From: Prorocentrum cordatum
Taxonomy: Eukaryota
Assembly: GCA_963575745.1 (NCBI GenBank)
Contig: CAUYUJ010000238.1
Location: forward strand, 1-64,000
Direction of reading: 5' to 3'
DNA length: 64,000 nucleotides
The notes below the pieces were generated by a model. The model was not told the origin of the DNA. It did no database searches and worked only from the letters and a program-made list of their open reading frames with translations. This document shows positions 14,229-49,684 of the stretch, in pieces. Position 1 is the stretch's first letter. Each line of letters starts with the position of its first letter. The position numbers were made by a program, and so were the translations under genes.

Positions 14229-14271
14229 GCTGGCCGCGGCGCGCTGAGCCTCGAGCTAGGCCGCGGGGGGC

Positions 14272-14472
14272 TTCGGGGGCGGCAAAGGGGGGGGGGGAGG
14301 ACCAGGCGGGGGTGGATCTCGCGGCGTGGGCCACGATGTTTCCCAGGCTTCCTGGCGCCCCTTCTCATTTCATCACGTCCCTGGTTTGTGCCTCCCTGGG
14401 CCGCGCACAGACCGCCAGCCATGGCTTGCACACCCCCCCTCTTGGACGCTCCCCTCTCTTGGCCGCCCCCCA
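14272..14472. mobile_element. GC-rich MITE-like element (GGGGGCGGC(C/A)AAG ends)
   Basis: Inverted ends; related pieces at about 13245-13433, 31500-31662 and 33036-33200. Confidence 0.5.
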
Positions 14473-15869
14473 GGGCTGGGGCACGGCGCGGCCGCCTCCG
14501 CAGCCCAGACCCCCTCGCGCTGTGAAGCAAAAATCGCGGCGGGAGGTTGTTCGCGAACTCCTTTCGGCCTCCGCGGGCCCGAACAGCCGGTCTCCCGGGA
14601 GGGGTCCAAGCTCCTGAGGCGCACGTCATGCAGAAGTCACGACGTCGGGGGTCTGGGAGTGCCGATTCGATCTGGCGCGGTTCGGTTCGCCAGCATCGGC
14701 TGGGGGCCAGCTGGAGCCAGGCGGGCGCGGCGGCCCGATGTCGCTCCGGCTCGGGGCGATCCGTCTCCGATCCGTTCCGAAGTCGCGAGTCGGTCCAGCC
14801 CAGGCTCGTCGGGGCAAAGCAGGGCCCAGGCCCGCTTCCAGAGCGGCCCAGGCCTTTCCCCGTGCCGTGTCTGGGCGGGGGCCCCACCCGAGCCAGCTCG
14901 GAGCTTGTCCCCGAGCGTCGCTCGGGCGTTTGGGCTTCGTGCTCTCTGCGCGCCTCCTCGCGGATCCGTGCGCTCCCCCTCGGGCCTGTGCAGGCCGCTC
15001 TGCGGAGCTGTGAGAGATTCGGTCGCTCGGCTCGCTCGCATGCCGTCTCTCAGAGGAGGAAGAGCCAGGCCGACCAACAAGTTCGCGTGCGTGGAGCTGT
15101 CCTGTGCGCTTACTGACCAGCACTGTCCCGAACGATTCCTGCTTTGGGCGCGTGTGCTACTCGGTCCGACTGCAGGGTTGTTGGTGATGCGTGTGGTTGT
15201 TCCGCTCTTTCTTTCGGGGGGCTGTCCTAATCAAGCTTGTGCGGGCCTTGTCCTTTCCAACGCTTGTTGGCTGTTGTCGAGGGTGCTTGGCGAGTCTCTA
15301 ACAATATCTGTTTTTCCCCAGATCGCCACTGAACAGCTAGATACGCAAACTTCCAATTTTGAGATGGGTTTCGCCCCTCGCAATTGTCGCAGACAGATTA
15401 CAGATGTGTCAGGGTCTCTTGGTGGATGGGCCCCCGCTCGCTTTTCAAGCACACTATTTCCGCTCGCCTTCGGCACATGCTCATATCTCACTCCTCCTTG
15501 TCTGCTCTTTGTTTCCCTTGTCCTCCTCATGTCCGGCATGCATAGAGGACGGTTCCATTGGTCTTCCCCCTCTGTGTTGCCCTTGCATCATCAAAGTATC
15601 CGCATGTCTTGCTCTGTATCCGCATAACCTCCTCTGCTATCCAGATGGCTTCCTCTGCATCCGGATGGATTCCTCTGTTATTCCAATGGGTTATTGTGGT
15701 CTTCCCAAGTCGTCAAAGCTATCCGAATGGCTGCCTCTGTATCCACATGGTTTCCTCTTGTGTCCGCATGGCTTCCTCTGCTGTGTCCGCATGGCTTCCT
15801 CTGTTACTCCAATGACTGATTGTGGCTATTCTGATGGCGTCCCAGCCGTCGTCCAACAGTCGTAAGCTC

Positions 15870-16505
15870 ACAAGTAGAGTAGAATAGAGTAGAGTAGAGC
15901 AGAGAAGATTTGAGCAGAGATGTGTAGATGGATATAATACAGCAGAATAAAGCAGAGTAGAGTAGAGCATAATAGAGCAACATAGAGAAGAGGAAAGAAG
16001 AGGAGAGGAGACGAGAGGAGAGCAAAAGAAGGGTAGAGGAGGTGAGAGGAGAGTAGCGTGGGGTAGTGTAGGGCAGGGTAGGGTAGAGTAGAGTAGGGTA
16101 GAGCAAAGCAGATTAGAGCAGAGCACTGTAGATGCTAGAGTAGAGTCATGTAGAATAGGGTAGGTCGAGCAGAGTAGAGTGGAGTAGCGTAGAGTAGAGC
16201 AGCGCAGAAGAGAGCACATTGGAGTAGCAGGAGTAGAGTAGAGAAGAGCAGAGCCGAGTAGAATAAGAGTCGAGTAAAGTAGAGTGGAGCAGCAGAAGAG
16301 TATAGTTAAGTTCAGTAGAGAAGAGTAGAGTAGAGCAGGGTTGTGCAGGGTAGACTAGAGCAGCGCAGAGTAGAGCAGAGTAGAGTAGATGGTATATTAG
16401 ACTAGAGTCGAGTCGGTCGAAGATAACAGAGAAGAGTAGATTAGATTGGAGTAGAGTCCACCCCAGTAAGGTCCAGTCTACTGCAGTCAACTACAGTCTA
16501 CTTCA
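15870..16505. repeat. Degenerate (AGAGT)n pentamer array
   Basis: Runs of agagtagagtagagc. Confidence 0.85.
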
Positions 16506-17066
16506 CTCTAGTATTTTGATATGTTTGAAAACTGCGCTGGCTGGTATTCCTGCTGACCATTTTTTATGCTGGCTCTGATTCCGACTTTGAGTTGTGTTTG
16601 TTGCGATATTTTGTTGCACCCATCCCTCGCTTCGCATTATGATATTACTGAACGCCATGCGCAGTACATGTGGCTTCCTTTGTCCGTCATACTTTGTGGG
16701 GCCGGCTGATAGCGAAAACATGTTATGATTTTAGATGTTGCGGTCGCAGCAAACTTCTTTCGCGCCGTCAAAACAGTGCGGTTCAGGGTCCGGTTCAAAT
16801 CGACGACAGCAGTTTGAGCGGGTCTTGCGAGGTCCGATTCGTAGTAGCCATCGATGTGGACCAGAACGTGGTATAAAATGCAGGTGAGCCCCGAAGCCTG
16901 CAGCTGGATCGGTTTTGAGTCTTTTGTCCCATAACTTCGGTGATCCGTCTTGCTCGCCGATGGGAGGCTTGGGCTGGGCTTGGGGATCCCTGGCGTTTCG
17001 AAGTTCTCAGAGCGTGTTCTGTAAGCCGAGAGCCCTCGACAATTCCTAGCGCCTCGCAAGAAGAGG

Positions 17067-17067
<1 letters not shown>

Positions 17068-17116
<49 letters not shown>

Positions 17117-17123
17117 CAATCAC

Positions 17124-17164
<41 letters not shown>

Positions 17165-17356
17165 CCATCATCATCACCATCATCATAAGGGGCTTTCGCC
17201 CAGGAACTGCACCATTCGCGCGCCGCTTGCAGGGCGGGGGTCCTTGGCCCGGTCTCTCTGGCCATGGCGTCTCGTTGCACGCTCGCATCATTACGAAAAT
17301 CATCATTATAAGCATCATCACAAGCATCAGTACCATCATCAACATCACACCATCAC

Positions 17357-17400
<44 letters not shown>

Positions 17401-17407
17401 CAATCAC

Positions 17408-17445
<38 letters not shown>

Positions 17446-17625
17446 CCATCATCATAAGGGGCTTTCGCCCAGGAACTGCACCATTCGCGCGCCGCTTGCA
17501 GGGCGGGGGTCCTTGGCCCGGTCTCTCTGGCCATGGCGTCTCGTTGCACGCTCGCATCATTACGAAAATCATCATTATAAGCATCATCACAAGCATCAGT
17601 ACCATCATCAACATCACACCATCAC

Positions 17626-17660
<35 letters not shown>

Positions 17661-17687
17661 CCACCATCATCATCATCATCATCATCG

Positions 17688-17723
<36 letters not shown>

Positions 17724-18315
17724 TCGCCATCATCGCCATCATCATCAGCAGCATCATCATCAGCATCATCATCATCAGCACTATCATCAACATAAACATC
17801 AAGAGTAGCATCATCATCATTTCCATCATCATCATCAAATCAGCATCACCATCATCAGCATCATCATCATCATCAGCACTATCATCAACATCAACATCAA
17901 CAGCAGCATCATCGCGAGGGCTGCGCCGTTCGCGCGTCCTACGGGCCCGCCAGCAGGCCCTGGGAGGGATCCTTGGCCACGTCCCTCTGACCAGGGCGTC
18001 TTGTCGCACTCCTGCATCCTCATGATGTTCATTATCATCAGCAGCATCATCATAATCAGCAGCAGCACCATCATCAGCATCATCATCATCATCATCATCG
18101 TCATCATCCTCATCATCCTTATCATCCTCATCCCCATCACCATCACCATCATCATCGTCGTCGCAGGTGGCGTCGAGATCGTCATCGTCATCAGCATCGC
18201 CGTCGTCGTCATCATCTGCAGCAGCATCATCCTCATCATCATCAGCATAAACAGCCTTATCATCAGCATAATCGTCATCCCACCATCCGCAGCATCCTCC
18301 TCCTCCTCCTCCTCC

Positions 18316-18359
<44 letters not shown>

Positions 18360-19042
18360 GTTATCAGCATCATGATCATCATCATCATCATCATCATCAT
18401 CATTATCAGCATTGTCATCATCGTCGGCATTATCATCAGCACCATCATTATCATGATCATCATCATCATCCGCATCATCATTATTGCCGCCGTCATCATC
18501 ATCATCATCATCATCATCAGCAGTATCATCATCGTCGTCCTCATCGTCATCCTCATCGTCATCGTCATCGTCGTCATCATTATCGACGTTGCAAGCGTCA
18601 TCAACATGGTCATCTTCATCATCAGAAACAGCATCAGCAGCAGCATCATCAACACCATCATTGTCGGCGTCATAGTAATCGCCGACAGTACCATCAGCAT
18701 CATCAACGTCATCATCATCATCATCGTCGTCATCATCGTCATCATCATCATCATCGTCGTCAGCATCATCATCTTCGCCATCACCATCATCATCGTCATC
18801 AGCATTATCGGTATCACCATGATTCGCACTATCAACAGCAGTAGCATCAGCAGCATCATCATCATCATCACCATCACCATCACCGTTATCGTCATCAGCA
18901 TCGTCATCATCATCACCACCATGGTCGCAATCATACTAATCAGCAGTCGCATCCGAATCAGCATCCTTATAAGCATCATCGTCATCGTCGTCATCATACC
19001 CATGATCACCACCATCACAATTTGCATAACGATCACCATCAT
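17068..19042. repeat. (CAT)n field containing a 269-bp tandem duplication
   Basis: CATCATAAGGGGCTTTCGCCCAGG at 17181 and 17450; a diverged third unit lies near 17920-18020. Confidence 0.9.
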
Positions 19043-20416
19043 TCGTGGCCACCTTCGGCGACACAAGCCTGGCTCACGGGCGCCCTTCGCACGCGGGAGC
19101 CCCGTCCAGCCGCAATGCTTCACATGGGTCGGCGACCGGGTCGAAGTCGGCGAACTGGTCGAGGGCCGTTGCCTGTGCGCTGCGAGGCTCAGCCAGGAGC
19201 TCCGCCAGGCGCCAAGACGGCCCAAGCCGCGCTGCCCACGAGGCGACTCCAGGCCCCCAACAGCGTCCCCAGGTGGCCCTGGCAGCGCTGGCTGGCCTCA
19301 ACAGGCCCCCCGAGCCCCGCGCAGTGAGAAACGCCGGCTCCCGGCAGTCTGTGTTGCGCGGCGACGGCGAGGGCGAAAGAGAGAACGAGAAGCAACCGGA
19401 CGACGGCGAGCGCGCGGGCGGGAGGCGAGAGGGCCGGCGGGTTCAAGCAGGCGGGCTGCCAGGTGCCAGGGCCATTGGCTCCCGCGCCGAGCAGGCGGCG
19501 AGAGGCGCCCGGCAGACTCGGGTGCTGGATCGGCGCTGCTGGCGTGTACTTGGCCGAAGGACACCCTCGCCGCCGATCGCACGGACTCGTCGAGGCCCCA
19601 CGGCAAGGCGGGGTCCGCGAGAGGCACGCCACGCTCATGGAGGACGCCCGCGGGCGGTCGTGCAGCCAGGGGGCCATCCTCTTGCGTCAGGGCCGCATCG
19701 CCTTCTGCGGGCGGGCACCCACGTCGCTTGCCAGGCGCGCGGGCCCACTGGATCCAAGTGGGGCGGCGGGAGTACGACTGAGTTGTGCGACTCCAACGCG
19801 TTCGCCAGCGAATCGAACCAACGTTAGCTCTGGGTCGTGTGCTTCGCAACTGTGACCCGCACAAGCCATCGGCTCTGATCGGACATTGGATTGATTTGCA
19901 TGTCGGAGGTGAAGAGAGTGCAGCTGGTTGGGCTTCCCGAAGCTGTAGCTTCCCATATAGTCTCGGGGGTCCCCCTTGCTCGATGGAAGACGCCTTGGGC
20001 CTGTGGCCTCTGGTGTTTGAACGCTTTCAGAGTGATCTCTCAATGCTCAGGAGGGAAAAAAACACACAGACACAATTAATCGACGATCCCCAGGAAAATA
20101 TGGGAAAATATGGGAAGTGGGGGGGAAGACAGAAACCCAGAAAATATGGGAAAATATGGGGACTATTTTTATTTGTGTGTATTTATTTGTGTGTCCTAAT
20201 TTCCCTTTAAATGCCAGGGTCTGCGACCGTGCCCTCAGCGCCGCATTGGCACAAAGCCTGGAAGCCCGCCGGCGCACGGCGGCCAAGGCCGAGGTGCCGC
20301 GCAGCGACAGGTGCCTGCAGCGGGAATGCGCGGGCACTTGCTCCGACCGCAGGAGCGCTGGGTCAGCATCGCCGGCAGCAGCACCATCGCCGCCACCGCC
20401 GCCGTCGTCCCCATGT

Positions 20417-20436
20417 GTAGCCCCGTTGGGCTCAAG
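20417..20436 (+). other. Relict dinoflagellate spliced leader (DinoSL-like)
   Basis: GTAGCC-CCGTTG-GGCTCAAG versus the DinoSL 3' part GTAGCC-ATTTT-GGCTCAAG. It lies 33 nt upstream of the ATG of an intronless gene. Confidence 0.65.
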
Positions 20437-20469
20437 GCAGGACGCCGCCAGGTCAGCTCTACTGCCCCC

Positions 20470-22020
20470 ATGGCTGTGGGCGCCACCGCCATCGCTGACC
20501 CCAGCAGGCGTGGGAGAAGGTCCCTGGCGGCCGCGCTGTCGCTGCTGGCACCGCTGGTCGCGCTGCGCGGGCCTGTCGCGCTCGTTGGCGGGGCCCCACC
20601 CCCGGCCCGCTGCGCCAGGCCCGGGCGGGCGGCATCGGCAGCGGACCGCACCGGCTCTCGCCTGGAGGCTCTGCGGGTGGCCGTGGTGGGCGCGGGGCCG
20701 TCGGGGCTCCTGCTGGCGCACCGCCTGCTGGCGGCCGGTGCCACGGTCGACGTGTTCGAGGGGCGCTCCGACCCGCGGGGCAGCGAGGCGGCGTTGGAGG
20801 GCCGCGCGTACGCCCTCGGCCTGGGCATCCGCGGGCGCACGGCGATCCGCACCGCTGGGGACGACCTGTGGGACAGCATCAAGCCCAAGGGCTACGGCAG
20901 CGAGAGGTTCCAGCTGCACCTGCCCTTCGGCCCCGTGGACCTGAGGACACCAGAGGATGGCGACGGGCTGGAGCCGAGCCTGCTCATCTACCAGAGCGAC
21001 CTCTGCGGGGCGATGCTGGATCAGCTGGAGAGGCGCTACGCCTCCTCCGGGCGGCTGCGGACTTGCTTCGGGGCGAATGTGAAGTCGGTGGACGTGGCTG
21101 CCGGAACGGTGACACTCTCAGAGCCAGATGGTGGCAGCAACATGTTCGGGCCGGTTGACATCGTCGCGGGTTGCGACGGCGTCAATTCAGTGGTGCGGGC
21201 CAGCGTGGAACAGGCTTGCTTTGGATTCACCGTGCAGAAGAAGCCGCTGCCAGGTTTCCTCAAGGTCTTGCGGTTCCCAAAGATGCCGACTGCCTTGGAA
21301 CCTACGGCCGTGCACGCCATCCCTGGCAAGGGCGGCTCGTCCGCTTTCATAGAGCCCACAGCGTTTGGCGCCTGCGCCCTCATCAACTGGCGCGACTCTC
21401 CGACAGAGCCAGACGCGGCCGAAAAGGGCAAGGGCGTGGACTGGAACAAGCTCGACGGCCCCGCGGAGGCGCGCGAGGCGCTGCGTAGCGCTTTCCCGCT
21501 GCTGGATGACGTGCTGGACGACGAGGCCGGCAGGCAGTTCGTCCAGCAGCAGCCCTCGAAGTCCGCCACTCTCAAGTGCAACACCTACCACCACGCCAAG
21601 GCTGTCCTGCTTGGGGACGCGGCCCACTCCACCGGGGGGGCCAGCGGCCAGGGCTGCAACTCGGCGCTGCAGGACGCCGCGGTGCTGGCGGACTTGCTGA
21701 TCGACGGCCCAGGCGACGTCTCGGGGGCCCTGAGGCGCTACTCTCTGCAGAGGGTGCCCGAGGGCCAGGCACTGCTCGAGCTGTCCCTGGGGCCGGGCGA
21801 AGACGTGAGCCCTCCGCAGCGCGTTCTCTACGGCCTGGCCCAGGCGGTAGGCAACGTGCTGAGCCGCTTCGGCATCGGCGAGCAGACGATGCAGACGAAG
21901 CTCACGACCACGCTCACTCCGGTTGCCCAGATCAGGCGCGAGCGCGATTTTTATTTTGGCAATTTTCCTTCCGACAAGGAGTTTGAGCAGTCCATCGTTG
22001 CCCTGGAGGCCAGCGGATAG
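20470..22020 (+). CDS. FAD-dependent monooxygenase, kynurenine 3-monooxygenase-like (class A flavoprotein hydroxylase), intronless, 516 aa, possible N-terminal organelle-targeting extension
   Basis: Uninterrupted ORF with GC3-rich codons. Rossmann motif RVAVVGAGPSGLLLAHRL..VDVFE, KMO-like GRAYALGLGIRGRTAI, DG motif DIVAGCDGVNSVVR and GD motif VLLGDAAHSTGGASGQGCNSALQDA. The ATG at 20470 is preferred over 20311 because it is the first ATG after the relict SL. Confidence 0.88.
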   Translation: MAVGATAIADPSRRGRRSLAAALSLLAPLVALRGPVALVGGAPPPARCARPGRAASAADRTGSRLEALRVAVVGAGPSGLLLAHRLLAAGATVDVFEGRSDPRGSEAALEGRAYALGLGIRGRTAIRTAGDDLWDSIKPKGYGSERFQLHLPFGPVDLRTPEDGDGLEPSLLIYQSDLCGAMLDQLERRYASSGRLRTCFGANVKSVDVAAGTVTLSEPDGGSNMFGPVDIVAGCDGVNSVVRASVEQACFGFTVQKKPLPGFLKVLRFPKMPTALEPTAVHAIPGKGGSSAFIEPTAFGACALINWRDSPTEPDAAEKGKGVDWNKLDGPAEAREALRSAFPLLDDVLDDEAGRQFVQQQPSKSATLKCNTYHHAKAVLLGDAAHSTGGASGQGCNSALQDAAVLADLLIDGPGDVSGALRRYSLQRVPEGQALLELSLGPGEDVSPPQRVLYGLAQAVGNVLSRFGIGEQTMQTKLTTTLTPVAQIRRERDFYFGNFPSDKEFEQSIVALEASG

Positions 22021-23249
22021 CGCGCAGTGAAGGAAGGCGGAGAGGGGGCGTTCTCGAAGCAGGGCTGCTTCTCTCTTCATCCCTCTCCTCCTCCTCCTGT
22101 TCCCCTGCTAGTCTATCTCAGACAGACAGACATTTTCGGCAGCGCTCGCTCGCACGGAAAAATCAAGACGCCCCCCCTGCTTGGAGCATCCTATGCAACA
22201 GCGGTGGGTGAAACGGTGGCCTCCTTGCCCCAGGACAACTTTTTTTAAGTTCTAGGGCACGGCGGCGTTTTCTAGCACAGTGTGTTCAGAGCAGCCCGCG
22301 CATTCGCAGGCGGTTCGGAAGGCTTCCAGATTGTGTGATTCCTCCCAGGCCAGACCACAGATCAGCCATTCCTCTAAAGGGTGGCTCTACGACTGTGCCA
22401 TGATGCGGATTGGCCAAAGAGGCCACGCGGGGCGCTCCGGCAAGGGCCTCGCCCTCGAGGGAGGGCAGGCGTCGACCCGGTCTTCTCCTCGGCGGGAGGC
22501 CGGCGGAGGCAAGAGGGGGGCGGCTCCGCGCCGCACTCACAGGAGGAGGAGGAGGAGGAGGAGGAGGAGGAGGAGGAGGGGGAGGAGGAGGAGGAGGAGG
22601 AGGAGGAGGAGGAGGAGGAGGAGGAGGAGGAGGAGGGGGAGGAGGAGGAGGAGGGGGAGGAGGAGGAGGAGGAGGAGGAGGAGGAGGAGGAGGAGGAGGA
22701 GGGGCGGAAGCGGGCGGACGTGACAAGGTCGTCTCTCGTCTCTGAGAGATGGGCCGCCTTGGAGGGGTTCCGGGTCTCTGGGCGCGCCCGCGCGAGCGAC
22801 GGCAGCAAGCGAAGGGCCGTCGTCGCCGACACCGGCCGCGCAGGCGGGCCCGCGCGAGGTCGCGCGGGGGCGCCCTTCGTTTCCGCTGGTGGCCCGACGC
22901 GCTGGCGGCCTGCGTGAGCCACCGCGCAGGGTCGCTGTGCCAGCTCGCGCTAGGCCCACTGCGTTGTCCGCCGCTCGCGCGGAGGGGGGGCGGTGAGCGG
23001 CTCCTCCCCGCGGCCCCTCCGCGGCCCGGCCCGCGCCCCGCTCTCCTCCCCGCCGCCGCTCCGGCACGCGTGGGCTCCGCGGGGGTCCGCTCGTCCCGCT
23101 CGGGCCCGTGCAGGCCGCCTCGCGGAGGAACTCGAGTGCCTCCTGCAGCCCCCGCGGGCAGGGGGAGGGGGGGGGACAAACGAACCTGGCGCGACCCCAA
23201 TCCGGGTAGAGCTTCCTGCCGCAGGGGCGAATTCTTGGGCGCCGTTTGG

Positions 23250-24575
23250 ACTGCTTGGCATTGCCTGGCGTTGCTTGGCCTTGCTTGGCCTTGCTTGGCG
23301 TTGCCCGGCATTGCTTGGCATTGCGTTGCATGGATTTCACTGCTTGGCGTTGCTTGGCGCTGCTTGGAATTGCCTCGCTGTGCCAGGGAAACCGAGGAAC
23401 AAGACTGGGGAGCCCGACGAACCCAAGCGAGGAGCAAGACCGGGGAACCCGATAAACAAGACCAGGGGACCCGAAGAAACCCAAGTAAGGAGCAAGATCA
23501 GGGAGCCAGATGAACAAGACCAGGGAACCCGAAGAAACCCAAGCGAGGAACAAGACGAGGGAGCCCGACGAACAGGACCACGGAGCCCGAAGAAACCCAA
23601 ACAAGGAACAAGACAGAGGAACCCGATGAGCAAGACCAGGGAGCCCGAAGAGAGAAGGCAAGGAGCAAGACTGGGAAACCCAGGCCCCATGTAAGGAAAC
23701 AAGACCGGGGAACCTTGAGGAACCCCTTTTGCAAGGAAACAGGATTGGGAAACAACGCCTACTTGGGGAATACGGACATGTTAGCCAGCGTGGACCCCAA
23801 ACAGTGGGTTGCTAGCAATCCATGTTGTGCAAGCTATGTTGAGCAGTCCATGTCGAGCAATCTATGTGGTGCAATTTGTGTGGAACAATATGTGCTGTGC
23901 AATCGATGTGGAGCGATCCATGTGGTGCAACCGATGTGGGGCTATCTATGGTGTGCAATATATGTTATACAACTAGTGTTGTGCAACATGTGTGGAGCAG
24001 ACTATGTGGAGCAATCGATGGTGTGCAACACATGTGTGCGCAATCCATGTGGTGTAACCTACGTGGTGCAATATATGTGGCGTAAATTTATGTTGTGCAA
24101 TATGTGTTGTGCGATCTACGTGGTGCAAACTATGTGGTGCAACATATGTGGTGCAGTCCTTGTTGCGGCGACTCGGCGGCGACGGGGCGGCGACGACAGC
24201 AATAAGGCGGCGCATACGACAGACGAGCCCAGACGACTGGCGGCGACGGGGCGGCGACGGCGGCAACAAGGCGGCGGACCCGACAAACGAGCCCACACGC
24301 GGTGCGGCGACGAAGCAGCGACGAGGCGGCGACGGCGGTGACAAGGCGGCGGACCCGACAAACGAGCCCAGACGAGGTGCGCGACGGCCGGCGACGAAGC
24401 AGCGACGTGGCGGCGACGGCGGCATCAAGGCGGCGGACCCGACAAACGAGCCCAGACGACGGACGGCGACGAGGCGGGGACGAGGCGACGGACTTCACAA
24501 ATGAGCCCAGACGACGGGCGGCGACGAGGCGGGGACGAGGCGGCAGCAAGGCGGCGGACCCGACAAACGAGCTCA
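23250..24575. repeat. Cluster of successive minisatellites (10-bp TTGCTTGGCN; CAAGACCAGGGAGCCCGA units; ATGTGGTGCA units; about 60-bp GGCGGCGGACCCGACAAACGAGCCC units)
   Basis: Direct inspection. Confidence 0.85.
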
Positions 24576-25102
24576 GGTCATTCCCATGAGACAAAGAAAT
24601 AAGAGCCCCTAGATGCAGGCATTGTTAAGGAAACAAGCGCACACAAGAAACCGCGTCTTGGCGACGGCCGCTCCCTCCGAGCCCCCCCCCCCTCGCGGGT
24701 CCAACGTTGAGGCCCCACGAGATGGTTCGGGAGGCCGCCGTTGCATGCCCCGAGCCTTCCGCAGTCAGACTCCGATCCAGCAACAGTTCTGAGCGCCCTC
24801 TCCCGAGTTGCCGAACGTTCCAGGCACCTTGCCGCAGAGCCGTGGAGACACGAGGGGGGGTCAAGAAGGGGCCTTGCCGTCCAGGGACCGAGAGGCTGGC
24901 ATCTCTTCCTCGGCAGGGGCGGCGCAGGGCCAGCGGAAGCGGGCGGAAATATTGAGGAGGGCGGTTCCGCCGGCAGAAGGCCAGCGGAACCTGGCGGAAG
25001 TATGAATCGCGCCCCCAAGAGATGTTTATATGTTGTTGCGATGCGAAGATGCCTGAGTCGGACACATAGGCGTTGGCCGATGTTTGCAGCCGCTTGCCTT
25101 TA

Positions 25103-26072
25103 AGTCGGGCCTGTCCCTCTACAGGAGAAATATGCAAAAATATGTGTTTTATGTTATTTTACATGTTGTTATATATATATATATGTATGTATATGTGTGT
25201 ATATGCATATATAAGAATTATCCCAGTGCGACCCTACTTAGGAGTTGAAGCCCCTAGGAAAGCAGCATTAGTAGTAACAGTAAAGCTAAGCTGAAGGTGA
25301 GCTAAAGCTAAGCTAAAGCTAAGATAAAGCTAAGCTAACGCTAAGCTAAAGCTAAGCTAAAGCTAAGCTGAAGCTAAGCTAAAGCTAAGCTCAAGCTAAG
25401 CTAAAGCTAAGGCAAAGCTAAGCTAAAGCTAAGCTCAAGCTAAGCTAAAGGTAAGCTAAAGCCAAGCTAAAGCTAAAGCTCCCAGGGGATTGGGGGAACC
25501 GCTCCCAGGGGACCGGGGGAACCGCCCAGGGGCGGGGTGCACTGCCCGGCCCCTTTAAGCAAAGCGAGTAAGAACCCTTCTAGGCAGAATTGTGTTGTGC
25601 TGCGCTATGCTATGCTATGCTATGCTATGCTATGCTATGCTGCGCTATGCTATGCTGGGCTATGCTATGATATGCTATGCTGCGCGATGCTACGCTATGC
25701 TATGTTGTGCTCTGCTATGCTAAAGCTCAGCGAAGCTAAGATGAAGGTAAGCTAAGCTAAGATAAACCTGAGCTAAGATGAAGCTAAGCTAAGCTGAGAT
25801 GAAATATGCTAAGCTAAGATGAGATAATCAACGCTCAGCTCAGGGGACGTAACTGGGGGAACCGCGGGGCGGATACTGGGGGAACCGCCCGGGGCGCTTT
25901 CCACTGCCCGGCCCCTTTAAGCCCAGAGAGTAAGAACCCTTCTAGGTAGAGCCTAGGTAGGGAACAAAAAGGTCAGAGGACAATGTTTGACAATCGTTGA
26001 GTATTTGGGCATATTTTGGAGTATGTTTTATTCTCCGCCTAACATCCCCCTGTACGGGGAGAAGGCCCGACG
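25103..26072. mobile_element. MITE family A copy carrying a nested satellite-filled element
   Basis: TA|AGTCGGGCCTGTCCCTCTACAGG ... CCTGTACGGGGAGAAGGCCCGACG|TA. Confidence 0.8.
25218..25962 (-). mobile_element. Helentron/DINE-1-like element, copy 2, with a duplicated terminal block and (GCTAT)n
   Basis: Same ends as 12582-13134 (TTATCCCAGTGCGACCCTAC ... GTAAGAACCCTTCTAGG..GAGCCTAGGTAGGG). The terminal block occurs twice (about 25480-25590 and 25840-25962). Confidence 0.6.
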
Positions 26073-35158: not shown

Positions 35159-35200
35159 GCGCCCGCGGGCGCGCCGGAGGGCACCGTGGGCAGGCTGGAG
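35159..35200 (+). CDS. Candidate exon (APAGAPEGTVGRLE)
   Basis: cgcAG|G acceptor, GAG|GC donor, phase 0/0. Confidence 0.4.
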
Positions 35201-35303: not shown

Positions 35304-35339
<36 letters not shown>

Positions 35340-38905: not shown

Positions 38906-40869
38906 CAGGAGTAGGGCCAGAACCGGCGGCGCGACACGTTGAGCAAACGTTCCTTGTCGCAGATCCCACGCTCCTATTGTGAAGGCCTGACGGTCAGTGC
39001 CGCCGACCCTGAAAGACATCGACAACGACCAAGAGGGGGGAGGAGAAGGAGGAGGAGGAGGAGGAGGAGGCGGCAGAGATAAGGAGGAGGAGGAGGAGGA
39101 GGTTGAGCAAACGTTCCCTGCCGCAGACCCCACGCTCCTACTTGCTTGTGCCACGCAAGCATCGGCGGCGGGGCTGTTGCTTTCCTGGCATGTGTCTAAT
39201 GCAATGCAAGCTCGGCAGGCCTGGTCGAGCAGCAACGCAGCGGCATTTGGAAAAAATGCTCCAGTATGCTCTGGTATGTTGCAGCCCAGATGCTTGCAAG
39301 GGCTCCCACCCAAGAAAGCAATAGAGCCACGGTCCCACCTGCCACTCCTTCCTCCGCATCCTCCTCCCCATCCTGGTCCTGATCCTCCTGCTCCTCCTGC
39401 TCCTGCGCCTGCTATTCCTGCTCCTCCTGCTCCTCCTGCTCCTCCTCCTCCTCCTCCTCCTCCTCCTCCTCCTCCTGCTCCTCCTCCTCCTGCTCCTCCT
39501 CCTCCTCCTCCTCCCCCTCCTCCTGGTCCTCCTGCTTCTCCTGCTACTCCTGCTCCTCCTCCTCCTCCTCCTCCTCATCATCCTCCTCCTCCTCCCGCCC
39601 GTCCTGCCCGTGCACTGCGAGGGCGCCGCCATCGCGCAGCTCGACTTCAGAAACTGGCAGATCAGCCTCGGCGTGGCCTCCGTCGTCGGCGCCCGACTGT
39701 CCGAGCTGCTGGTCGGCGTGGAGGTGGAGGCTACCGTCCTGAGGGCCACCCCGGGAGCTCAACACACACACACACACACACACACAACGAAAAAATCTAT
39801 TTGGGAGGACAATATTTAGATGCCCGCGTCGATCAAGATGTCGATATAGCTGCGCTGATACAGTGAGCACCGATGCATTTACAAAACGGATCTGCCTTGA
39901 TCTCGGGCGCGCGGGCGGGGCTTGGTCCGGAGCTCCCCAAGAGGGCCCCAAACGGCTCCACATAGCTTCCAGACGGCCACAAGACGGGCTACGAGGGCTC
40001 CAGGAGGCATTCCAGACGGTCCAAGAGGGCTCGGAGTTGCCGAGTAATCGGTCCAAGACGCTCCAGATAGCCTCCAGGCAGCCCAAGAGGCCACAAAGGC
40101 GCCCCAAGAGGCATCCAAGAGCTCTCCGACGAGAGCTACAAGAGGCACAAACCGTTTCAGTCTTTCTGGGAAACACATACGTTTAGCATGTGCGGCTTTT
40201 CGGGGGCAGCATTAGGGGAGGAATAGGCTCATGGCGGGGGGGGGCATCGACCCCCAATAGCCCATTGATCGCCGATAGGAGCCCGATAACCAGCCCCGCC
40301 CAGGACCGTGCGGATTTGCTCTCGGGGGCACATCGCCGATCCATCAGTGATGCATCGCCGATCCTGGGTCGACGTCTCCCCTCTGAGCCGGTCCCCTCCT
40401 CCTCCTCCTCCTCCTCCTCCTCCTCCTCCTCCTCCTCCTCCTCCTGCTCCTCCTCCTCCTCCTGCCCTGCTCCTGCTCCTCCTCCTCCTCCTCCTCCTCT
40501 CTCTCCTCCTCCTCCTCCCTCCTCCTCCTCGCTCCCCTCCTCCCTCCTCCTCCCTCCTCCTCCTCCTCCTCCCTCCTCAACGGTCGGGCCCCCTCCTCCT
40601 CCTCCTCCTCCTCCTCATCCTCCTCCTCCTCCTCCCCGCCTCCCCCTCCTCCTCTTCCTCCTCCTCCTTCTCTTCCTAAACGTTTCTCCTCGAGTATGGG
40701 GCCTTATCGTGGGCACAGCCGGATCCGTCTCAGAGTGCTGACCCAGGCGCACCCTGGCGGGCTTCGAGCTCTGACCACGCCAGGGCCTCCGATACGCCGT
40801 GGCTGGTGTGGTCCCGGTCCCTGGGAGCGGCTGGAGCCCTTGGAGGCCAGTTTTCGGGCTCACGGGCCA

Positions 40870-41045: not shown

Positions 41046-41108
41046 CATCAGAAAACGCCCTAGGGGTCAAGAGCGACTGTCCCCAGGATGGGGCCGAGGG
41101 GATTCCAG

Positions 41109-41183: not shown

Positions 41184-41379
41184 GCGCGGCCCCGGGGGTC
41201 CCGACCCTCTCCCAGGGGCAAGTGTCTCGCCCCGGGTCCGTTTCTGATGGCCCTTGGGCGGACTGGAAAACGCAGATGGTCGGAGGTCTGGGCCTCCCCC
41301 ACGACCGTTGCCCCTCGGCCGCCTGGCGCCCCGAGCGACGCACGCCGCCCAGGTCACGCGCTTCGGCGCCTGCTGCTTG

Positions 41380-41552
41380 CAGTCAACCTGCGTAGTAAGG
41401 ATGGGCTGTGATCCCAAGGGTGCCCTCGCATCCTTGCCTCCTCGACCCATCCTGGGTCACTTTCGTTGGCCGCGCCCCGCTCGAAAAGCTTCGAAACGGC
41501 CTTCCAAGGCCCTTGCATCCTTATCGTGCATCCTTACTATATGGGTCGACTG
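41380..41552. mobile_element. MITE family B copy
   Basis: CAGTCAACCTGCGTAGTAAGG ... CCTTACTATATGGGTCGACTG|TA. Confidence 0.8.
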
Positions 41553-42234
41553 TACGTCGGGGGGGGGGGCGCAGCGTCCCATGGAGAAGTGGACGAGTAA
41601 ACAGACATTATGGGTTCGTCGCCGCCGCCGTCGAGGCTTGGCAGGCCGCAGCCAGCGACCCAGACGAGAAACGCTGGTTTTCTTGATCGTCCATGCGCAG
41701 CCTGTGTCCCAATCGTTTGGTCGAGGTTCTTGCCTTGTGGCTCCTCGAGCGACACCGCCCAGGTCACGCGCTTCGGCGTCTTCTGCTACGTGGGCGCAGA
41801 GCAGGACGCGCTTCTGCCCACGAGCCAGATGTCCAGGCCCCCTCGGGCCCGCCGCAGCTTTGCTGCGGGGCTCGGCCGGCCATCACGCGGTCGGTGTCGG
41901 GGCACCCAGAATGTTCGAGGTTCGAGCTTCCCAGTCATGCGACGTCCTGAATTTGTTGATACCGTCAAGACGCTGAAGTAAGAACCACGTTGGACCACGT
42001 TGGTTTCAGGAGAGGAGCTTCATGCCGTGGAACGTGTTTGTGGCCTAGGTTCCGCCATGGCCAGGAAAGTCCCCTCTCTCCTTATTTTGCGTTTATCTGC
42101 GCCGTCGCCGCTTCGGTGGGCAGCGCTTTCTCAGATAGCAAGATCACGAAGCCGTTAGGGCAACCTCGCGAGCCACGCCGCTGGCGCACGAGACCAAGAC
42201 AAACCCGTGGGTTTCGGGCGGGGCGCCGCCGCGC

Positions 42235-42760: not shown

Positions 42761-43383
42761 GAAGCGGGGGCGAAAGAGCTGGCCTCGCGCGCCTTCTTCG
42801 CACCGCAGCCGGTTTGCGAACCCCATAAAGAATTGGGTTCCCACTCAAAACTTCCTCACCATCCATTCCGAGACGAGGTTCCCGCTCAAGACTAGATTCC
42901 GGATCCACACCCCACGACACTACAGGTGACGACGGTAATAGGATTTGGGTGACCCGTTCGGGTTCCCGACATGGTCTGCTTGCCCCATCGGGACAGGGCG
43001 CCCCGCCTGAGATTTCCCCGCAAATCACTCACAGACGAGGTTCCCGTCCGAGTATTCCTCCAGACCCTCGCTTCGGGAATTCAAAAGTGGCGGCATTCGC
43101 ATGGTCTGGATTACCCGTTCTGATGACGAGCTCCTAACATGATCTGGCCACATGATATGGCGGCCCCATTGGGAGGGTCGCCCGCCTGAGACGCCCCCAC
43201 GATTCAGTCACAGGCGAGGCTTCCGTTGGAAACCTTCCCTAGCTGAATGTGTGGGTGTGTGGGTGCCACTGGGATTGTTACTGATGATGTGGATGATGAT
43301 GGGATGTTGACTGCGATGGCGATGGTGTTCATGATGGGACGGCGACACTGGTGATGATGATGTTGTGATAGCGATGAGGATGG

Positions 43384-43416
<33 letters not shown>

Positions 43417-46400: not shown

Positions 46401-47438
46401 CCGTGCCTGCAGGTTCCTTGGGCGCGCCCTCGTCTCGGTTCGCCCGAGTCCTTGCCTACGGGGCCCTGGTCCATAGACTGTTTTTCTTCTGGATGTTCAG
46501 CTTTTGGCGGCTGGCCCTGGGGCCATCAAAAAAACACTCGGGACGAACAGCTTGGCCCAGGGAAGAGAACGAGAAGACCAGAGGCCTAGAGGCTCGAAGA
46601 TATTGAGCGGTCGGAGGTCTGGGCCTTTCAGACCCGAGCTCTTCCCCTCATTCCCCCTCGCTGCCACCACCCCCTCCTTGATTGTCTTCACCCTTCTCCG
46701 CAGTTCACACTGGCGCTTCTCCCGCTACTCCTACCCTCCCCCTCCTCCCCCTCCTCCCCCTCCTCCAACAACCACCCTCCAGCAGGATGGATCTGCTGGC
46801 CTTCGCGACTGTCTGGTCACTCCTGTGCCGCACAGATGGACTCGGTCTGGGGCGCCAGCCTGGACAGGGCTTGGATTCGCACAAGGTTTACCTCGAATCG
46901 ACCTTTTGCAGAGATCGAAGGAGTGCACACGTGTTCAGGCAAGGACAGGCAGGCTAGAATGAGCAGAATGAACAGAGCGCCGGCCAGGCAACCCTCGGAG
47001 TACGTGATAGGCGAGAAGCTGGAAGGAATGAGGACGACTGGAGTCCAAATCGTCGGAGGGGTCCGCACAGGAGGATGCGGGGCAGAGGGGGGAGTGACAC
47101 ATGATGGACCAGGAACTCGGAGCCCACCCCGCCTGGCATCATCGTGAACCGTGGCCCCCGGTGCTGCTGCCGCAGCCCAGATTCTGTGATGCGCAGCTCG
47201 GGAAGGCTGGCGCTCCGTCTCATCGCCTTCCTGCACGGCGGGGGCTGTGCTGGTGCCCCCCATCACGCTGCTGCTGGGCCGCGGAACGAAGCTTTGCTCG
47301 ATCATCGCCACACCTCAGCGAGGGAACGCAGATCGCCTTCCGGAGGCAGGCGCCCCCTGAAAATGCAGGGAGGAGAAGAAGCCATGGTTTGTTGCGAGGT
47401 CGAAGATCAAAGATTATTCCGCCCTGGTTTTAGAATTA

Positions 47439-47592
47439 AGTCGGGCCTGTCCTTCTGCAGGAAGAGTATTCAAAACTTGTCCAAAACTAGTCTGGGGACA
47501 ATTGTTTTAGCATGTTTTGAGTATTGTTGAGCATTTGTTGGGTACTTTTAATTTTTCGCCCAAACCCCCCCTGTAGGGGGACATGCCCGACC
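47439..47592. mobile_element. MITE family A copy
   Basis: AATTA|AGTCGGGCCTGTCC ... GGGGACATGCCCGACC|TAATT. Confidence 0.85.
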
Positions 47593-48075
47593 TAATTTTA
47601 GAAGTTCTGCCCCCCTTTTTCCCCCAAGGGCCTCGAGGACACCGACCTGGACACCCGGCGGCTCGAAGAAAGAGGAGGCGACTGATTGTGTTGTCAAGTC
47701 TGGGCCTGTGGAGGAGCATCTTTGGGCATCGGGACCACCGCAGAAGTACTCGGAGTGAAAAGCCAGAAACGGAGAATGGGGCAGGGCCAGGACAGGCAGT
47801 GAACCGTTCCAGAGCGTTCTGGAATGCTCCTGGAGCGATCCGGAGCACTCTGTAACGGCCGCGGCGCCCGACACATCCTCCAGAACCGCCGCCGGATCTC
47901 AGAGATCCCCGAGTTGTCCCGATCCGATTTTGTCTTGGCCATGGCTTCGTCTCGAAGAAGCGGTCAAGAAGTCCAGCGTGCACATGTCCCGACAAAAATC
48001 GAGCCGCAGGTTGTCTGGGCCAGAGGAAAACAGCGCTGAAAGAAGGAATGGAAAAAGTCTGGATGGATGGTGGTA

Positions 48076-48289
48076 CTGTCAAGAACGTTTGCTTAGCGTG
48101 TCGAGGCGCGGGTCTGGCCCATCACACTTCCGCGCGACACGCCGACCACATCCCAGTCCCCAAGCGTCAACGTCCCGAGCCTTTCCCATTTCTCCGCCCC
48201 GCTCTGCGGAGCGACGCGCCATCCGCTTGCAGGTCACAGCGTGTCGCGAGGGCCGTCGCCGCGACACGCTGAGCATAAGGTCCTGACCC
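48076..48289. mobile_element. MITE family C copy
   Basis: TA|CTGTCAAGAACGTTTGCTTAGCGTGTCG ... GCGACACGCTGAGCATAAGGTCCTGACC; the core AGCGTCAACGTCCCGAGCCTTTCCCA is shared with 1829-2035. Confidence 0.75.
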
Positions 48290-48953
48290 TGCTCACAGAC
48301 GGACGTGGGCGCCTGCCAGAGCATCGGAAGGCTTCCACCACGGTGGCGATCTGCTGTCAGCCGGCCTCTCGCGGGAGCGCGCGGGCCTCGGCCAGGTCCG
48401 GGGCACGCCGTCGCCTTCCCCGCGCTCGCATGCCTCTCGCGCGCGCGCGCTCGCGCCAGGCGGGCAGGGACGGGCGGGCAAGAAGGCAAGCAGACGGAAG
48501 GGGTCGACTGGGGTCGAGCCCCACAGTTTCGGTTCACCTCGCGCGTCTCACTTGTTCCTTAGTGAACCCCCGACCCCCTCTGTGTTCAGACGAGGGGCGC
48601 TCGGCAGGACAGGCGGTTGCAGGATCACCTTCATCAACCGTTAGCAGCAACAGCAGACGGAAAGGGTGACGCGCACACCGACGGGCAGAAAGAGAGCGCG
48701 TGAGCGAGTGAGCACGGCAAGGTCGCGCCGCGTCGACGCGCGGTGTCGACCTCGGCGCCGGCGTGCCAGGTTGAGCCCCGCCCGCCGCCCGAAATCGGCC
48801 GACATCGAAGGATGACCGCTTTCGGAAGGCGTCCGTCGCTCCCGGTTGCGCGCAGGTGGTCACGACATGAAGTTGTGCCACAGCATTGCAAGGCCATGGG
48901 AGGCCTGCAGAAGCAAGGAGTGGGCAGAATGATGCCCCTCGGGACTAGACTTA

Positions 48954-49081
48954 GGTCGGGCATGTCCTCCTACAGGTGGGCAATGGAAGAAAATAACAAA
49001 TGCTCAAAAAGAAAAGAAAAATCGCCCCAACATTGTTGGACTCTTCTTGAGCATTCCTCCTGTAGGGTGACATGCCCGACT
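48954..49081. mobile_element. MITE family A copy (reverse orientation)
   Basis: TA|GGTCGGGCATGTCCTCCTACAGG ... CCTGTAGGGTGACATGCCCGACT|TA. Confidence 0.85.
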
Positions 49082-49582
49082 TAAGACTAGACTCGCCCCG
49101 CTGTCGCGGGCACGTATAGGGAGGAGGAGGTGTCGAGGGGAGAGCCGGAGGCCTCTGGGAGGGATCCCAGCCGAAGATTTCTCTTGAGGAGCAAGCAACA
49201 TAGACCTCCCAGGGAACAAGCAATGTACAGAGAGAGAGAGAGCGAGTAGACAGGTGTAGTCTCAAGCGCCTTGGGCGAACCGGAGGAGCAGGAGGGCGAA
49301 GAGAAGGAGGAGGAGGGAGGGAAGAAGGGCGGGAGGGAAGGAGCAAGGAGGAGGAGGAGGCGGAAGAGCAAACGAGGGAGGGGGGGAGAAGGAGGAGCAG
49401 CAGCACCACCACGGGGAGGAGCGGGATGCGGAGGGGAGGCGATGAGGCGGGCGGAGGGGCAAGACCAGGCAGGAGCGCCTGCGCGCGCCAGCGGCCCGAC
49501 GCCGCGGGGAGGAGGAGGAGGACGGGGGCCCGGCTGTGCCGCAGAGCCGCCCTCGCCCGGCGTCCGCCCGGCCGCCCCCGAG

Positions 49583-49684
49583 GATCACCGAGATCGACCA
49601 GGTGCTCGGGCGGCTGTCGCTGTCCGACCGCCTGCTGGTCTCGGAGTTCTCCCTGGGCCAGCGGGTCTCGGGCCGCGTGACGAG
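49583..49684 (+). CDS. Candidate exon containing an S1-domain-like start (ITEIDQVLGRLSLSDRLLVSEFSLGQRVSGRVT)
   Basis: cccgAG|G acceptor, AG|GC donor, strongly GC3-biased. FSLGQRVSGRV resembles the S1 N-terminal motif (L/F)xxGxxVxGxV. Confidence 0.55.

What the first reader, a model, noticed from the sequence alone, without database searches (positions are those of the whole stretch)
14229..49684. The retrogene may be nested, on the same strand, inside an intron of the S1-like gene
More + strand exon-like islands with the same junction signature occur beyond the monooxygenase: 31687-31733, 35159-35200, 41109-41183, and 49583-49684, which carries a new S1-like start (FSLGQRVSGRV). If they belong to the gene begun at 1652, a multi-S1 gene spans at least 48 kb and hosts a sense-oriented, trans-spliced retrogene. 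In that case cis-splicing of the host and SL trans-splicing of the guest would act on one primary transcript. I could not complete the exon chain (phases between 14228 and 31687 are unresolved), so these could be two separate genes.
Basis: inference. Interest (0 to 1): 0.7.

Follow-up and report, generated by a model that had tools for sequence, protein, structure and literature searches.

The report
Monooxygenase gene nested in S1-gene intron
A single-exon kynurenine-monooxygenase-like gene very probably sits, in the same direction, inside a 13-kb intron of a long gene for an S1 RNA-binding repeat protein, an arrangement already known to be common in dinoflagellate genomes.

Summary
The main idea holds; half of the exon list does not. 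RNA contigs from 4 of 4 runs (four studies) join 27354-27415, 35159-35200 and 39622-39744 on the + strand (GA..AG and GC..AG introns). Each contig runs a further 354-661 nt upstream of 27354, and no piece or joint is listed inside 20000-27351. The upstream exons therefore most likely lie before the monooxygenase.

It ends in TAG|GC in phase 1 and gives an open frame. This joint was not seen directly.

The monooxygenase (mRNA 20434-22131, CDS 20470-22020) is colinear with the genome in 4 of 4 runs, so it is an expressed single-exon gene.

- Confirmed by RNA: 35159-35200.
- Supported in silico: 49583-49684 (phase plus S1 profile).
- Not in the transcript: 31687-31733.
- Not supported: 41109-41183. 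The likely real exon is 41763-41836 (Pfam S1, E 0.0099).

The labels 'retrogene' and 'trans-spliced' remain unproven. The SL-like motif scores at chance level, though it abuts the mRNA 5' end.

Nested genes make up 6.5-25% of genes in published dinoflagellate genomes, so this is a new member of a known kind.

The parts
14181..14259 (+). Predicted host exon, the last one before the guest.
   Evidence: It is open in frame, ends ..CTAG|GC, and ends in phase 1 as the exon at 27354 requires. Its last two letters, AG, explain why all 4 contigs align from 27352. The letter before them is T, not G, which fits the alignment stopping at 27352. It is one of 13 of 431 AGG[TCA] sites in 1-19999 that pass lenient filters. 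It was not seen in RNA.
14260..27353 (+). Inferred host intron of 13,094 nt (GC..AG) that contains the guest gene.
   Evidence: The 3' end at 27353 is fixed by RNA contigs in 4 of 4 runs. The 5' end is inferred.
20417..20436 (+). Degenerate DinoSL-like motif that ends in the AG just before the guest mRNA body.
   Evidence: Local alignment to the 21-nt leader scores 11, with 16 matches, 3 mismatches and 1 gap. That is chance level for the window, but the motif abuts the contig 5' ends at 20434-20439. There is no match at 3 or fewer mismatches.
20434..22131 (+). Guest mRNA body: a single exon.
   Evidence: One contig of 1683-1717 nt per run, in 4 of 4 runs, lies colinear on 20434/5/7/9 to 22121/7/8/31. 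X18 and X3 show 0 other letters and no gaps.
20470..22020 (+). Guest coding sequence of 516 aa: a kynurenine 3-monooxygenase-like FAD monooxygenase with a non-conserved N-terminal extension of about 70 aa.
   Evidence: Pfam FAD_binding_3 scores 5.3e-19 and 69.1 bits against a cut-off of 22. PDB kynurenine 3-monooxygenases score 8e-29. There are 269 homologues at E<=1e-5. The named top ones are dinoflagellates at 56-62% identity, and several are called kynurenine 3-monooxygenase.
27354..27415 (+). Host exon of 62 nt with a GA donor.
   Evidence: RNA contigs in 4 of 4 runs. The joint to 35159 is resolved from 3 ambiguous letters.
35159..35200 (+). Host exon of 42 nt with a GC donor.
   Evidence: Joints on both sides in 4 of 4 runs.
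39622..39744 (+). Host exon of 123 nt with a GC donor. Its 3' part begins S1 domain A.
   Evidence: Contig piece 39619-39749 in 4 of 4 runs. The frame is continuous with the two exons before it.
41763..41836 (+). Predicted host exon: the core of S1 domain A.
   Evidence: - Pfam S1 (PF00575) is the only hit for this exon: E 0.0099 and 16.7 bits, at profile positions 14-39 of 74.
- Spliced after 39744 in a script, it scores 21.2 bits against an S1 profile built from 13 E. coli S1 domains. None of 300 shuffles reach that.
- Its first five letters differ by one from 39745-39749. That fits the contigs' overhang and their single unlisted mismatch.
49583..49684 (+).
   Evidence: Phase-compatible with 41836 and with 58130. 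Adding it raises the S1 score to 24.8 bits. Joined to 58130-58226 it scores 17.1 bits, and 0 of 300 shuffles reach that.
58130..58226 (+). Predicted host exon: the core of S1 domain B. It lies outside the finding's range.
   Evidence: AG|G acceptor and AG|GA donor, with a phase that fits 49684. The S1 profile domain scores 14.5-16.6 bits.

Best explanation
The + strand carries a very long gene with many small exons. Its exons are 42-123 nt and its introns 2-13 kb. Its product contains at least two tandem S1 RNA-binding domains.

One of its introns, most likely 14260-27353, contains a complete and separately expressed single-exon gene in the same orientation. That gene encodes a kynurenine-3-monooxygenase-like flavoprotein (mRNA about 20434-22131).

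Shown:
- Both mRNAs are present in the same four RNA data sets.
- The guest is colinear with the genome.
- The host exons 27354-27415, 35159-35200 and 39622-39744 are spliced together.
- The host mRNA goes on for up to 661 nt upstream of 27354.

Inferred:
- Those upstream letters come from exons before 20 kb, with 14181-14259 as the neighbour.
- The exons 41763-41836, 49583-49684 and 58130-58226 follow downstream.
- As in dinoflagellates generally, the guest mRNA is made by spliced-leader trans-splicing at the AG at 20435-20436 and by polyadenylation near 22.13 kb, while the host intron is removed by cis-splicing.
For: **Host transcript.** In 4 of 4 runs, from four studies, one contig of 1152-1445 nt holds 27352-27413, 35157-35197 and 39619-39749. 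The joints resolve to GA..AG and GC..AG on the + strand only. The same contigs extend 661, 577, 587 and 354 nt upstream of 27352. The table of best-supported joints lists both host joints in 4 runs each, but no joint into 27352 from 20000-27351.

**Guest.** Contigs lie colinear on 20434-22131 in 4 of 4 runs, with 0 mismatches in X18 and X3. The protein matches FAD_binding_3 and kynurenine 3-monooxygenases, and has dinoflagellate homologues.

**S1 identity of the host.** Pfam S1 scores E 0.0099 on exon 41763-41836. The spliced products score 21.2-38.7 bits, and 0 of 300 shuffles reach those scores.
Against: - No joint across the monooxygenase was seen. The upstream partner lies outside the 20 kb that could be laid.
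- The loose end at 27352 was not among the rows shown (323 rows hidden). Ten joints and 824 pieces were also hidden.
- The tool skipped simple repeats, for example 22532-22714.
- 14259 is one of 13 candidate donors, not the only one.
- The RNA-confirmed 102-aa stretch does not itself match the S1 profile: 1.6 bits, and 26 of 300 shuffles reach that.
- No upstream exon (1641-1709, 10477-10578, 14181-14258) matches Pfam S1.
- Contigs cannot show strand. The strand rests on the splice signals and the reading frame.
- The 23 letters beyond the guest's 5' end in X2 do not behave like a canonical leader joined at 20437. A canonical leader would have aligned back to about 20429.
Confidence: 0.75

Rival explanations
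1. There are two independent neighbouring genes. An upstream gene ends before 20.4 kb, and the S1-domain gene starts downstream of the monooxygenase. Its first exons lie in 22.1-27.3 kb, hidden in repeats that the laying tool skipped.
For: The joint across the monooxygenase was not observed. Read laying skipped repeats such as 22532-22714 and hid 10 joints, 323 loose ends and 824 pieces. Upstream exons show no S1 match.
Against: Between 354 and 661 nt of upstream mRNA in 4 of 4 runs would have to lie entirely in skipped repeats or in exons too short to lay. A joint carried by the same four contigs would rank with the two that are listed. Only about 0.2 of the sampled words of 14000-23999 are held by the RNA runs. 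That is about the size of the monooxygenase mRNA alone, so no sizeable terminal exon is evident in 14-20 kb. This last point is a weak one.
Confidence: 0.12
2. The spliced contigs come from a paralogous copy of the S1 gene elsewhere in the genome. The copy in this window, with the monooxygenase inside it, may not itself be the expressed or intact one.
For: The pieces carry 0-2 other letters. Dinoflagellate genomes are rich in duplicated genes. Exon fragments are duplicated inside this very locus (41324-41377 against 41738-41787 at 83%).
Against: In the runs where the monooxygenase contig is identical to the window over 1.69 kb (X18 and X3), the host pieces show 0 and 1 other letters. The single mismatch is explained by the exon overhang at 39745-39749. 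All joints fall on proper splice signals of this locus.
Confidence: 0.06
3. The monooxygenase is not an independent nested gene. It is an alternative terminal exon of the host, cis-spliced from an upstream host exon to the AG at 20435-20436 and polyadenylated near 22.13 kb.
For: The X2 contig has 23 letters beyond 20435 that fit neither the genome nor, by the alignment limits, a canonical leader joined at 20437. All four contigs start right behind an AG.
Against: Joining 14259 (phase 1) to 20437 puts the monooxygenase out of frame (read from the sequence). The Met at 20470 begins a typical presequence. Homologues elsewhere are stand-alone proteins of 450-530 aa. The 23 letters were not displayed, so nothing ties them to a host exon.
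Confidence: 0.07

Closest known systems
Nested (intronic) genes of dinoflagellate genomes: Amphidinium carterae (PMC12584245) and Polarella glacialis (PMC7245778). Passages read.
   Same: A short gene lies wholly inside a long intron of a host gene that has many short exons and long introns. In A. carterae 25.2% of genes are nested. In P. glacialis 6.5-8.4% are nested, and full-length transcripts validated this. Guest and host are both expressed.
   Different: Nothing fundamental differs. In this window the host is an S1-repeat gene and the guest is a monooxygenase. The passages I read do not state the strand of nested genes or how their transcripts are made.
DinoSL-tagged retrogenes of dinoflagellates (PMC12014239, PMC5585692; passages read).
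   Same: An intronless gene with a leader-like motif at its 5' boundary. These papers put retrogenes at 22-25% of Symbiodinium genes. One known route to retrocopy survival is insertion into an intron of an active gene.
   Different: The defining tag is a 15-nt relic inside the transcript, directly behind the new leader. Here the transcripts start 3' of the motif. The motif itself matches no better than chance sites in the window.
Proteins with tandem S1 domains, such as bacterial ribosomal protein S1 and eukaryotic Rrp5/PDCD11. The Rrp5 architecture is recalled, not tested.
   Same: The S1 domains follow each other directly. The end of one and the start of the next lie in one exon (49583-49684). 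Two domains are detected in the in-silico product.
   Different: Only two domains reach a clear score. No C-terminal HAT/TPR part could be looked for, because the gene runs off the window. No orthologue was retrieved.
Kynurenine 3-monooxygenase (FAD_binding_3, PF01494).
   Same: Pfam scores 69.1 bits and the solved enzymes score 8e-29. The match covers the Rossmann fold and the FAD-binding region. Sources name the homologues kynurenine 3-monooxygenase.
   Different: The protein has an N-terminal extension of about 70 aa that is not conserved in homologues (query coverage 86-90%). Substrate specificity was not tested.

Membership tests
Sense-oriented nested (intronic) gene | The guest lies wholly between two exons that are joined in a host mRNA. 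| tested here: inconclusive
   The downstream exon (27354-27415) is in RNA of 4 of 4 runs. Its contigs continue 354-661 nt upstream, and no joint is listed inside 20000-27351. The upstream exon (14181-14259) is inferred from phase, the AG end and the open frame. The joint itself was not seen.
Sense-oriented nested (intronic) gene | The guest is expressed as an mRNA of its own. | tested here: met
   Colinear contigs of 1683-1717 nt on 20434-22131 in 4 of 4 runs. The listed pieces contain no host exon.
Sense-oriented nested (intronic) gene | Guest and host lie on the same strand. | tested here: met
   The guest ORF is on +. The host joints give GA..AG and GC..AG only when read on +, and the frame is continuous on +.
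DinoSL-tagged retrogene | No introns in the coding region. | tested here: met
   The contigs are colinear with the genome, without gaps, in 4 of 4 runs.
DinoSL-tagged retrogene | A leader relic (DinoRL) is present in the transcript directly behind the new leader (definition in PMC12014239). | tested here: not met
   The contigs begin at 20434-20439, which is 3' of the motif at 20417-20436. The motif scores 11. Another + strand site scores the same, a - strand site scores 12, and 13 of 20 shuffles reach at least 11. There is no match at 3 or fewer mismatches.
DinoSL-tagged retrogene | An intron-bearing parental copy exists elsewhere in the genome. | not testable with these tools
   No genome is held for this window.
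SL trans-spliced mRNA | The 22-nt DinoSL is at the 5' end of the guest mRNA. | tested here: inconclusive
   One of 4 contigs (X2) has 23 letters beyond 20435 that do not fit the genome. They were not displayed, and the alignment limits do not fit a canonical leader joined at 20437.
S1 RNA-binding domain protein (PF00575) | A match to the S1 profile above Pfam's gathering score of 22 bits. | tested here: inconclusive
   The single exon 41742-41840 scores 16.7 bits, E 0.0099, covering a third of the profile. Spliced proteins could not be handed to Pfam. Against a home-made profile of 13 E. coli S1 domains the spliced products score 21.2, 24.8 and 38.7 bits, and 0 of 300 shuffles reach those scores.
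S1 RNA-binding domain protein (PF00575) | Several tandem S1 domains. | tested here: inconclusive
   Two domains (21.9 and 14.5 bits) appear in the in-silico chain 39622-58226. The RNA-confirmed stretch before them does not score. Ten other single exons gave no Pfam S1 hit.
Kynurenine 3-monooxygenase / FAD_binding_3 | A Pfam PF01494 match above its cut-off, and likeness to solved enzymes. | tested here: met
   69.1 bits against a cut-off of 22. PDB kynurenine 3-monooxygenases score 8.2e-29 over residues 157-553.

The most novel reading that the evidence does not exclude
Host and guest are made from one sense primary transcript. Each passage of the polymerase yields one of two products. Either the host mRNA forms, with the 13-kb intron and the guest inside it removed by cis-splicing. 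Or the monooxygenase mRNA forms, cut out of that intron by leader trans-splicing at 20436 and polyadenylation near 22.13 kb, which would abort the host message. The two genes would then be coupled and mutually exclusive at the level of RNA processing.
Probability: 0.3. Interest if true: 0.55.

Novelty: new member of a known kind. Interest (0 to 1): 0.28.

Why it matters
This locus adds one more well-documented example of a nested gene in a dinoflagellate. It has RNA support from four independent studies.

It also shows how much ab initio exon calling misses in these genomes. Half of the islands picked by eye were wrong. Real exons of 42-62 nt sit 4-13 kb apart, and exon fragments are duplicated as decoys inside the introns.

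Because guest and host run the same way, the locus could serve as a test case for an open question. Are sense-nested dinoflagellate genes transcribed on their own, or processed out of the host's precursor? The passages I read in the papers on nested genes do not address this.

Tried and rejected
**Pfam on open frames.** I scanned all + strand frames of at least 40 aa in 1-42717 (296 frames). Only the monooxygenase was found, because the host's exons are too short. Pfam on 11 single exons gave no S1 hit. Pfam on 12 long frames, 8 of them on the - strand, gave nothing credible.

**Protein searches with host exons.**
- 49583-49684: no hit.
- 39622-39747: no hit.
- The search of 1.84 billion representatives returned only low-complexity poly-Leu matches (13 hits).
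- The collection holds the window's monooxygenase only as a bacterial-style open frame (P0015), so spliced products are probably not in it.

**Other searches.**
- Exact-match scans of metagenome contigs with 36 and 25 letters of two confirmed exons found 0 loci each.
- A PDB search with exon 41742-41840 found nothing.

**Own scripts.**
- A home-made exon-chaining dynamic programme over 1-14259 produced poly-Glu micro-exons and GC-rich junk. I discarded it.
- A first S1 profile built from six domains was too weak.

**Candidate exons rejected.**
- 40090, the only AG|GCCAC site downstream. It lies in a degenerate repeat, has low third-position GC, and gives no S1-like frame.
- 41353, a partial duplicate of the 41763 exon: 5.1 bits.
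- 41109-41183: 1.0 bit.
- 31687-31733: skipped by the transcript in 4 of 4 runs.

**Parts of 20000-39999 without contig cover.** I draw no conclusion from these. Depth figures were not used to rank host against guest, as the tool warns.

**Earlier findings.** The search of earlier findings returned nothing.


Full report
**What the window is.** The DNA is GC-rich, about 0.55-0.67 in most 2-kb bins. It is full of simple repeats. It carries an N gap at 52306-52405. No whole genome is held for it. The closest named relatives of its one large open frame come from dinoflagellates: an Alexandrium transcriptome, Polarella glacialis, Symbiodinium pilosum and Effrenium voratum. The splice sites found below (GC and GA donors, AG|G acceptors) are of the dinoflagellate type.

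**The guest gene.**
- The frame 20200-22020 (+) matches Pfam FAD_binding_3 at 5.3e-19 and 69.1 bits, against a cut-off of 22.
- It matches solved kynurenine 3-monooxygenases at 8.2e-29.
- From the Met at 20470 (516 aa) it has 269 homologues at E<=1e-5. One unnamed protein is 86% identical. The dinoflagellate proteins are 56-62% identical. Several sources name their proteins kynurenine 3-monooxygenase.
- The first 70 or so residues are not conserved and look like a targeting presequence. This is an inference.
- In each of 4 of 4 RNA data sets (four studies), one contig of 1683-1717 nt lies colinear on 20434/20435/20437/20439 to 22121/22127/22128/22131. There are no gaps. X18 and X3 show 0 mismatches.
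- The gene is therefore expressed and has no intron.

**The ends of the guest mRNA, and the 'retrogene' label.** All four contigs start within 6 nt of each other, just behind the AG at 20435-20436. That AG ends a leader-like motif at 20417-20436, which has 16 matches, 3 mismatches and 1 gap to the 21-nt leader.

The motif is not better than chance for this window:
- another + strand site scores the same 11;
- a - strand site scores 12;
- 13 of 20 shuffles reach 11 or more;
- no site matches the leader with 3 or fewer mismatches.

Only its position, directly at the mRNA boundary, speaks for a relic. The published tag of dinoflagellate retrogenes is a relic inside the transcript behind the new leader (PMC12014239, passages). 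That is not the case here.

One contig (X2) has 23 further letters at the 5' end that do not fit the genome. They were not displayed. A canonical leader joined at 20437 should have aligned back to about 20429. So I cannot say that a leader was seen. The 3' ends cluster at 22121-22131, which is a weak hint of a poly(A) site.

**The host transcript: what RNA shows.** I laid 20000-39999, so that the guest sits at the very start of the stretch.

In 4 of 4 runs, one contig (X2 1445 nt, X3 1383, X13 1374, X18 1152) has:
- pieces at 27352-27413 and 39619-39749;
- joints 27413->35157 (3 ambiguous letters) and 35197->39619 (4 ambiguous letters).

Reading the sequence, only one placement of each joint gives splice signals:
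- intron 27416-35158 reads GA..AG;
- intron 35201-39621 reads GC..AG.

Both placements are on the + strand, and no placement gives signals on the - strand. The exons are therefore 27354-27415, 35159-35200 and 39622-39744, and their joined frame is open.

**Does the host span the guest?** The same contigs continue upstream of 27352 by 661 nt (X2), 577 nt (X3), 587 nt (X13) and 354 nt (X18). The table of best-supported joints lists both host joints in four runs each. It lists no joint into 27352 from anywhere in 20000-27351. A joint carried by the same four contigs would rank equally and should have been shown. The upstream exons therefore most likely lie before 20000, that is, upstream of the monooxygenase.

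The caveats:
- 10 joints, 323 loose ends and 824 pieces were not shown;
- simple repeats such as 22532-22714 were skipped;
- I could make only one such call.

**The likely upstream partner.** The alignment starts two letters before the exon, at 27352-27353 (AG). So the preceding exon ends in AG, and the letter before that is not G. The frame needs an exon that ends in phase 1.

Among 431 AGG[TCA] sites in 1-19999, 13 pass lenient filters for phase, open frame and codon bias. It lies in one of the few segments of that region with strong third-position GC bias. It reads through into 27354 without a stop.

I take 14181-14259 as the probable neighbour, at about 60-65%. That makes the host intron 14260-27353 (13,094 nt, GC..AG), with the guest 6.2 kb from its 5' end and 5.2 kb from its 3' end.

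**Downstream exons and the S1 identity.** All four contigs align five letters past the GC donor at 39745. In X18 and X3, whose monooxygenase contigs are identical to the window, the piece has one unlisted mismatch. An exon beginning at 41763, behind an AG, differs from 39745-39749 at exactly one letter.

- That exon (41763-41836) is the only piece of the window that Pfam recognises as S1: E 0.0099, 16.7 bits, profile positions 14-39 of 74.
- I built an S1 profile from 13 E. coli S1 domains, found with PF00575 in the K-12 chromosome.
- The script-spliced product of the RNA-confirmed exons plus 41763-41836 scores 21.2 bits. None of 300 shuffles reach that, and the best shuffle scores 6.7.
- Adding 49583-49684, which fits in phase, gives 24.8 bits.
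- 49583-49684 joined to 58130-58226, again fitting in phase, gives a second S1 domain at 17.1 bits, with 0 of 300 shuffles reaching it. The chain 39622-58226 scores 38.7 bits, with two domains.

So the host encodes at least two tandem S1 domains. The 102 residues confirmed by RNA before them do not score (1.6 bits, which 26 of 300 shuffles reach). No exon further upstream matches S1. The claim of a 'multi-S1 gene begun at 1652' is not established. No orthologue could be retrieved.

| Island | Verdict | Basis |
|---|---|---|
| 35159-35200 | confirmed | RNA, 4 of 4 runs |
| 49583-49684 | supported in silico | phase and S1 profile |
| 31687-31733 | not in the transcript | 27415 joins 35159 directly in 4 of 4 runs; contigs touching it are partial matches to GC-rich simple sequence |
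| 41109-41183 | not supported | 1.0 bit against the S1 profile |

The island at 41109-41183 shares an exact 17-mer with the start of the 58130 exon; that 17-mer occurs only twice in the window. It looks like a duplicated exon fragment. Likewise 41324-41377 is an 83% copy of 41738-41787, which covers the acceptor and start of the 41763 exon.

**How it most likely works.** The host is cis-spliced across the 13-kb intron. The guest is matured as its own mRNA.

Two routes are possible for the guest. It may be made from its own transcription start, or it may be processed out of the host precursor by leader trans-splicing and polyadenylation. My data do not separate these. Both mRNAs are present in the same four data sets, and contig depth cannot be used to compare them.

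A reference title in PMC12584245's list, seen only as a citation, says that tandem-array transcripts in a dinoflagellate are not polycistronic. That cautions against assuming a shared precursor.

**Comparison with what is known.** Nested genes are ordinary in dinoflagellates.
- In Amphidinium carterae 25.2% of genes are nested. [quoted passage not shown]
- In Polarella glacialis 6.5-8.4% of genes are nested, confirmed by full-length transcripts (PMC7245778, passage).
- Retrogenes are put at 22-25% of Symbiodinium genes (passage in PMC12014239). Insertion into an intron is a recognised way for a retrocopy to be expressed (PMC5585692, passage).

This locus is therefore a new member of a known kind. 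My two literature searches and the passages I read say nothing about the strand of nested genes or how their mRNAs are made. I did not read the supplements.

**Verdict.** Interest is low to moderate.

Noticed in passing
window 30010-30142: High-depth contigs in X2, X3 and X13 (contig depth 164-1223), and a shorter one in X18, match only about 79 nt (30010-30088) and carry loose ends. X2, X3 and X13 show the same loose-end letters on both sides. About 40 nt downstream, at about 30126-30142, lies a second spliced-leader-like motif with the same alignment score (11) as the one at the monooxygenase. It may be a repeat or a small RNA gene inside the host intron.
   Followed up: partly
window 41109-41137, 41324-41377, 41738-41787, 58130-58148: Exon fragments are duplicated inside the introns. 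41324-41377 is an 83% copy of the acceptor and start of the 41763 exon. An exact 17-mer is shared by 41121 and the start of the 58130 exon. These decoys misled exon calling by eye.
   Followed up: partly
window 52000-58000: An AT-rich block (GC 0.38-0.41) with very strong C-over-G skew (GC skew about -0.5). It is built of repeats that read as long poly-Tyr runs in + frames. An assembly gap of 100 N lies at 52306-52405.
   Followed up: no
window 20435 (5' end of the monooxygenase mRNA): In run X2 the monooxygenase contig has 23 extra letters at its 5' end that fit neither the genome nor, judging by where the alignment stops, a canonical leader joined at 20437. A low-depth contig of the same run covers 20250-20407 unspliced.
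   Followed up: partly
window 42378-42671, - strand: Two stretches with strong codon-position GC bias lie on the - strand inside a host intron. One holds a short motif that reminded me of Pif1/Helitron-type helicases. That is recalled, not tested. Pfam found nothing in the enclosing frame.
   Followed up: partly
window 17067-18915, 22541-22702, 14000-14087, 39345-39607: The host introns hold long trinucleotide arrays: (ATC)n over about 1.8 kb, and (GAG)n/(AGG)n and (CTC)n runs. They stay open in several frames and mimic coding sequence in composition-based exon finders.
   Followed up: no
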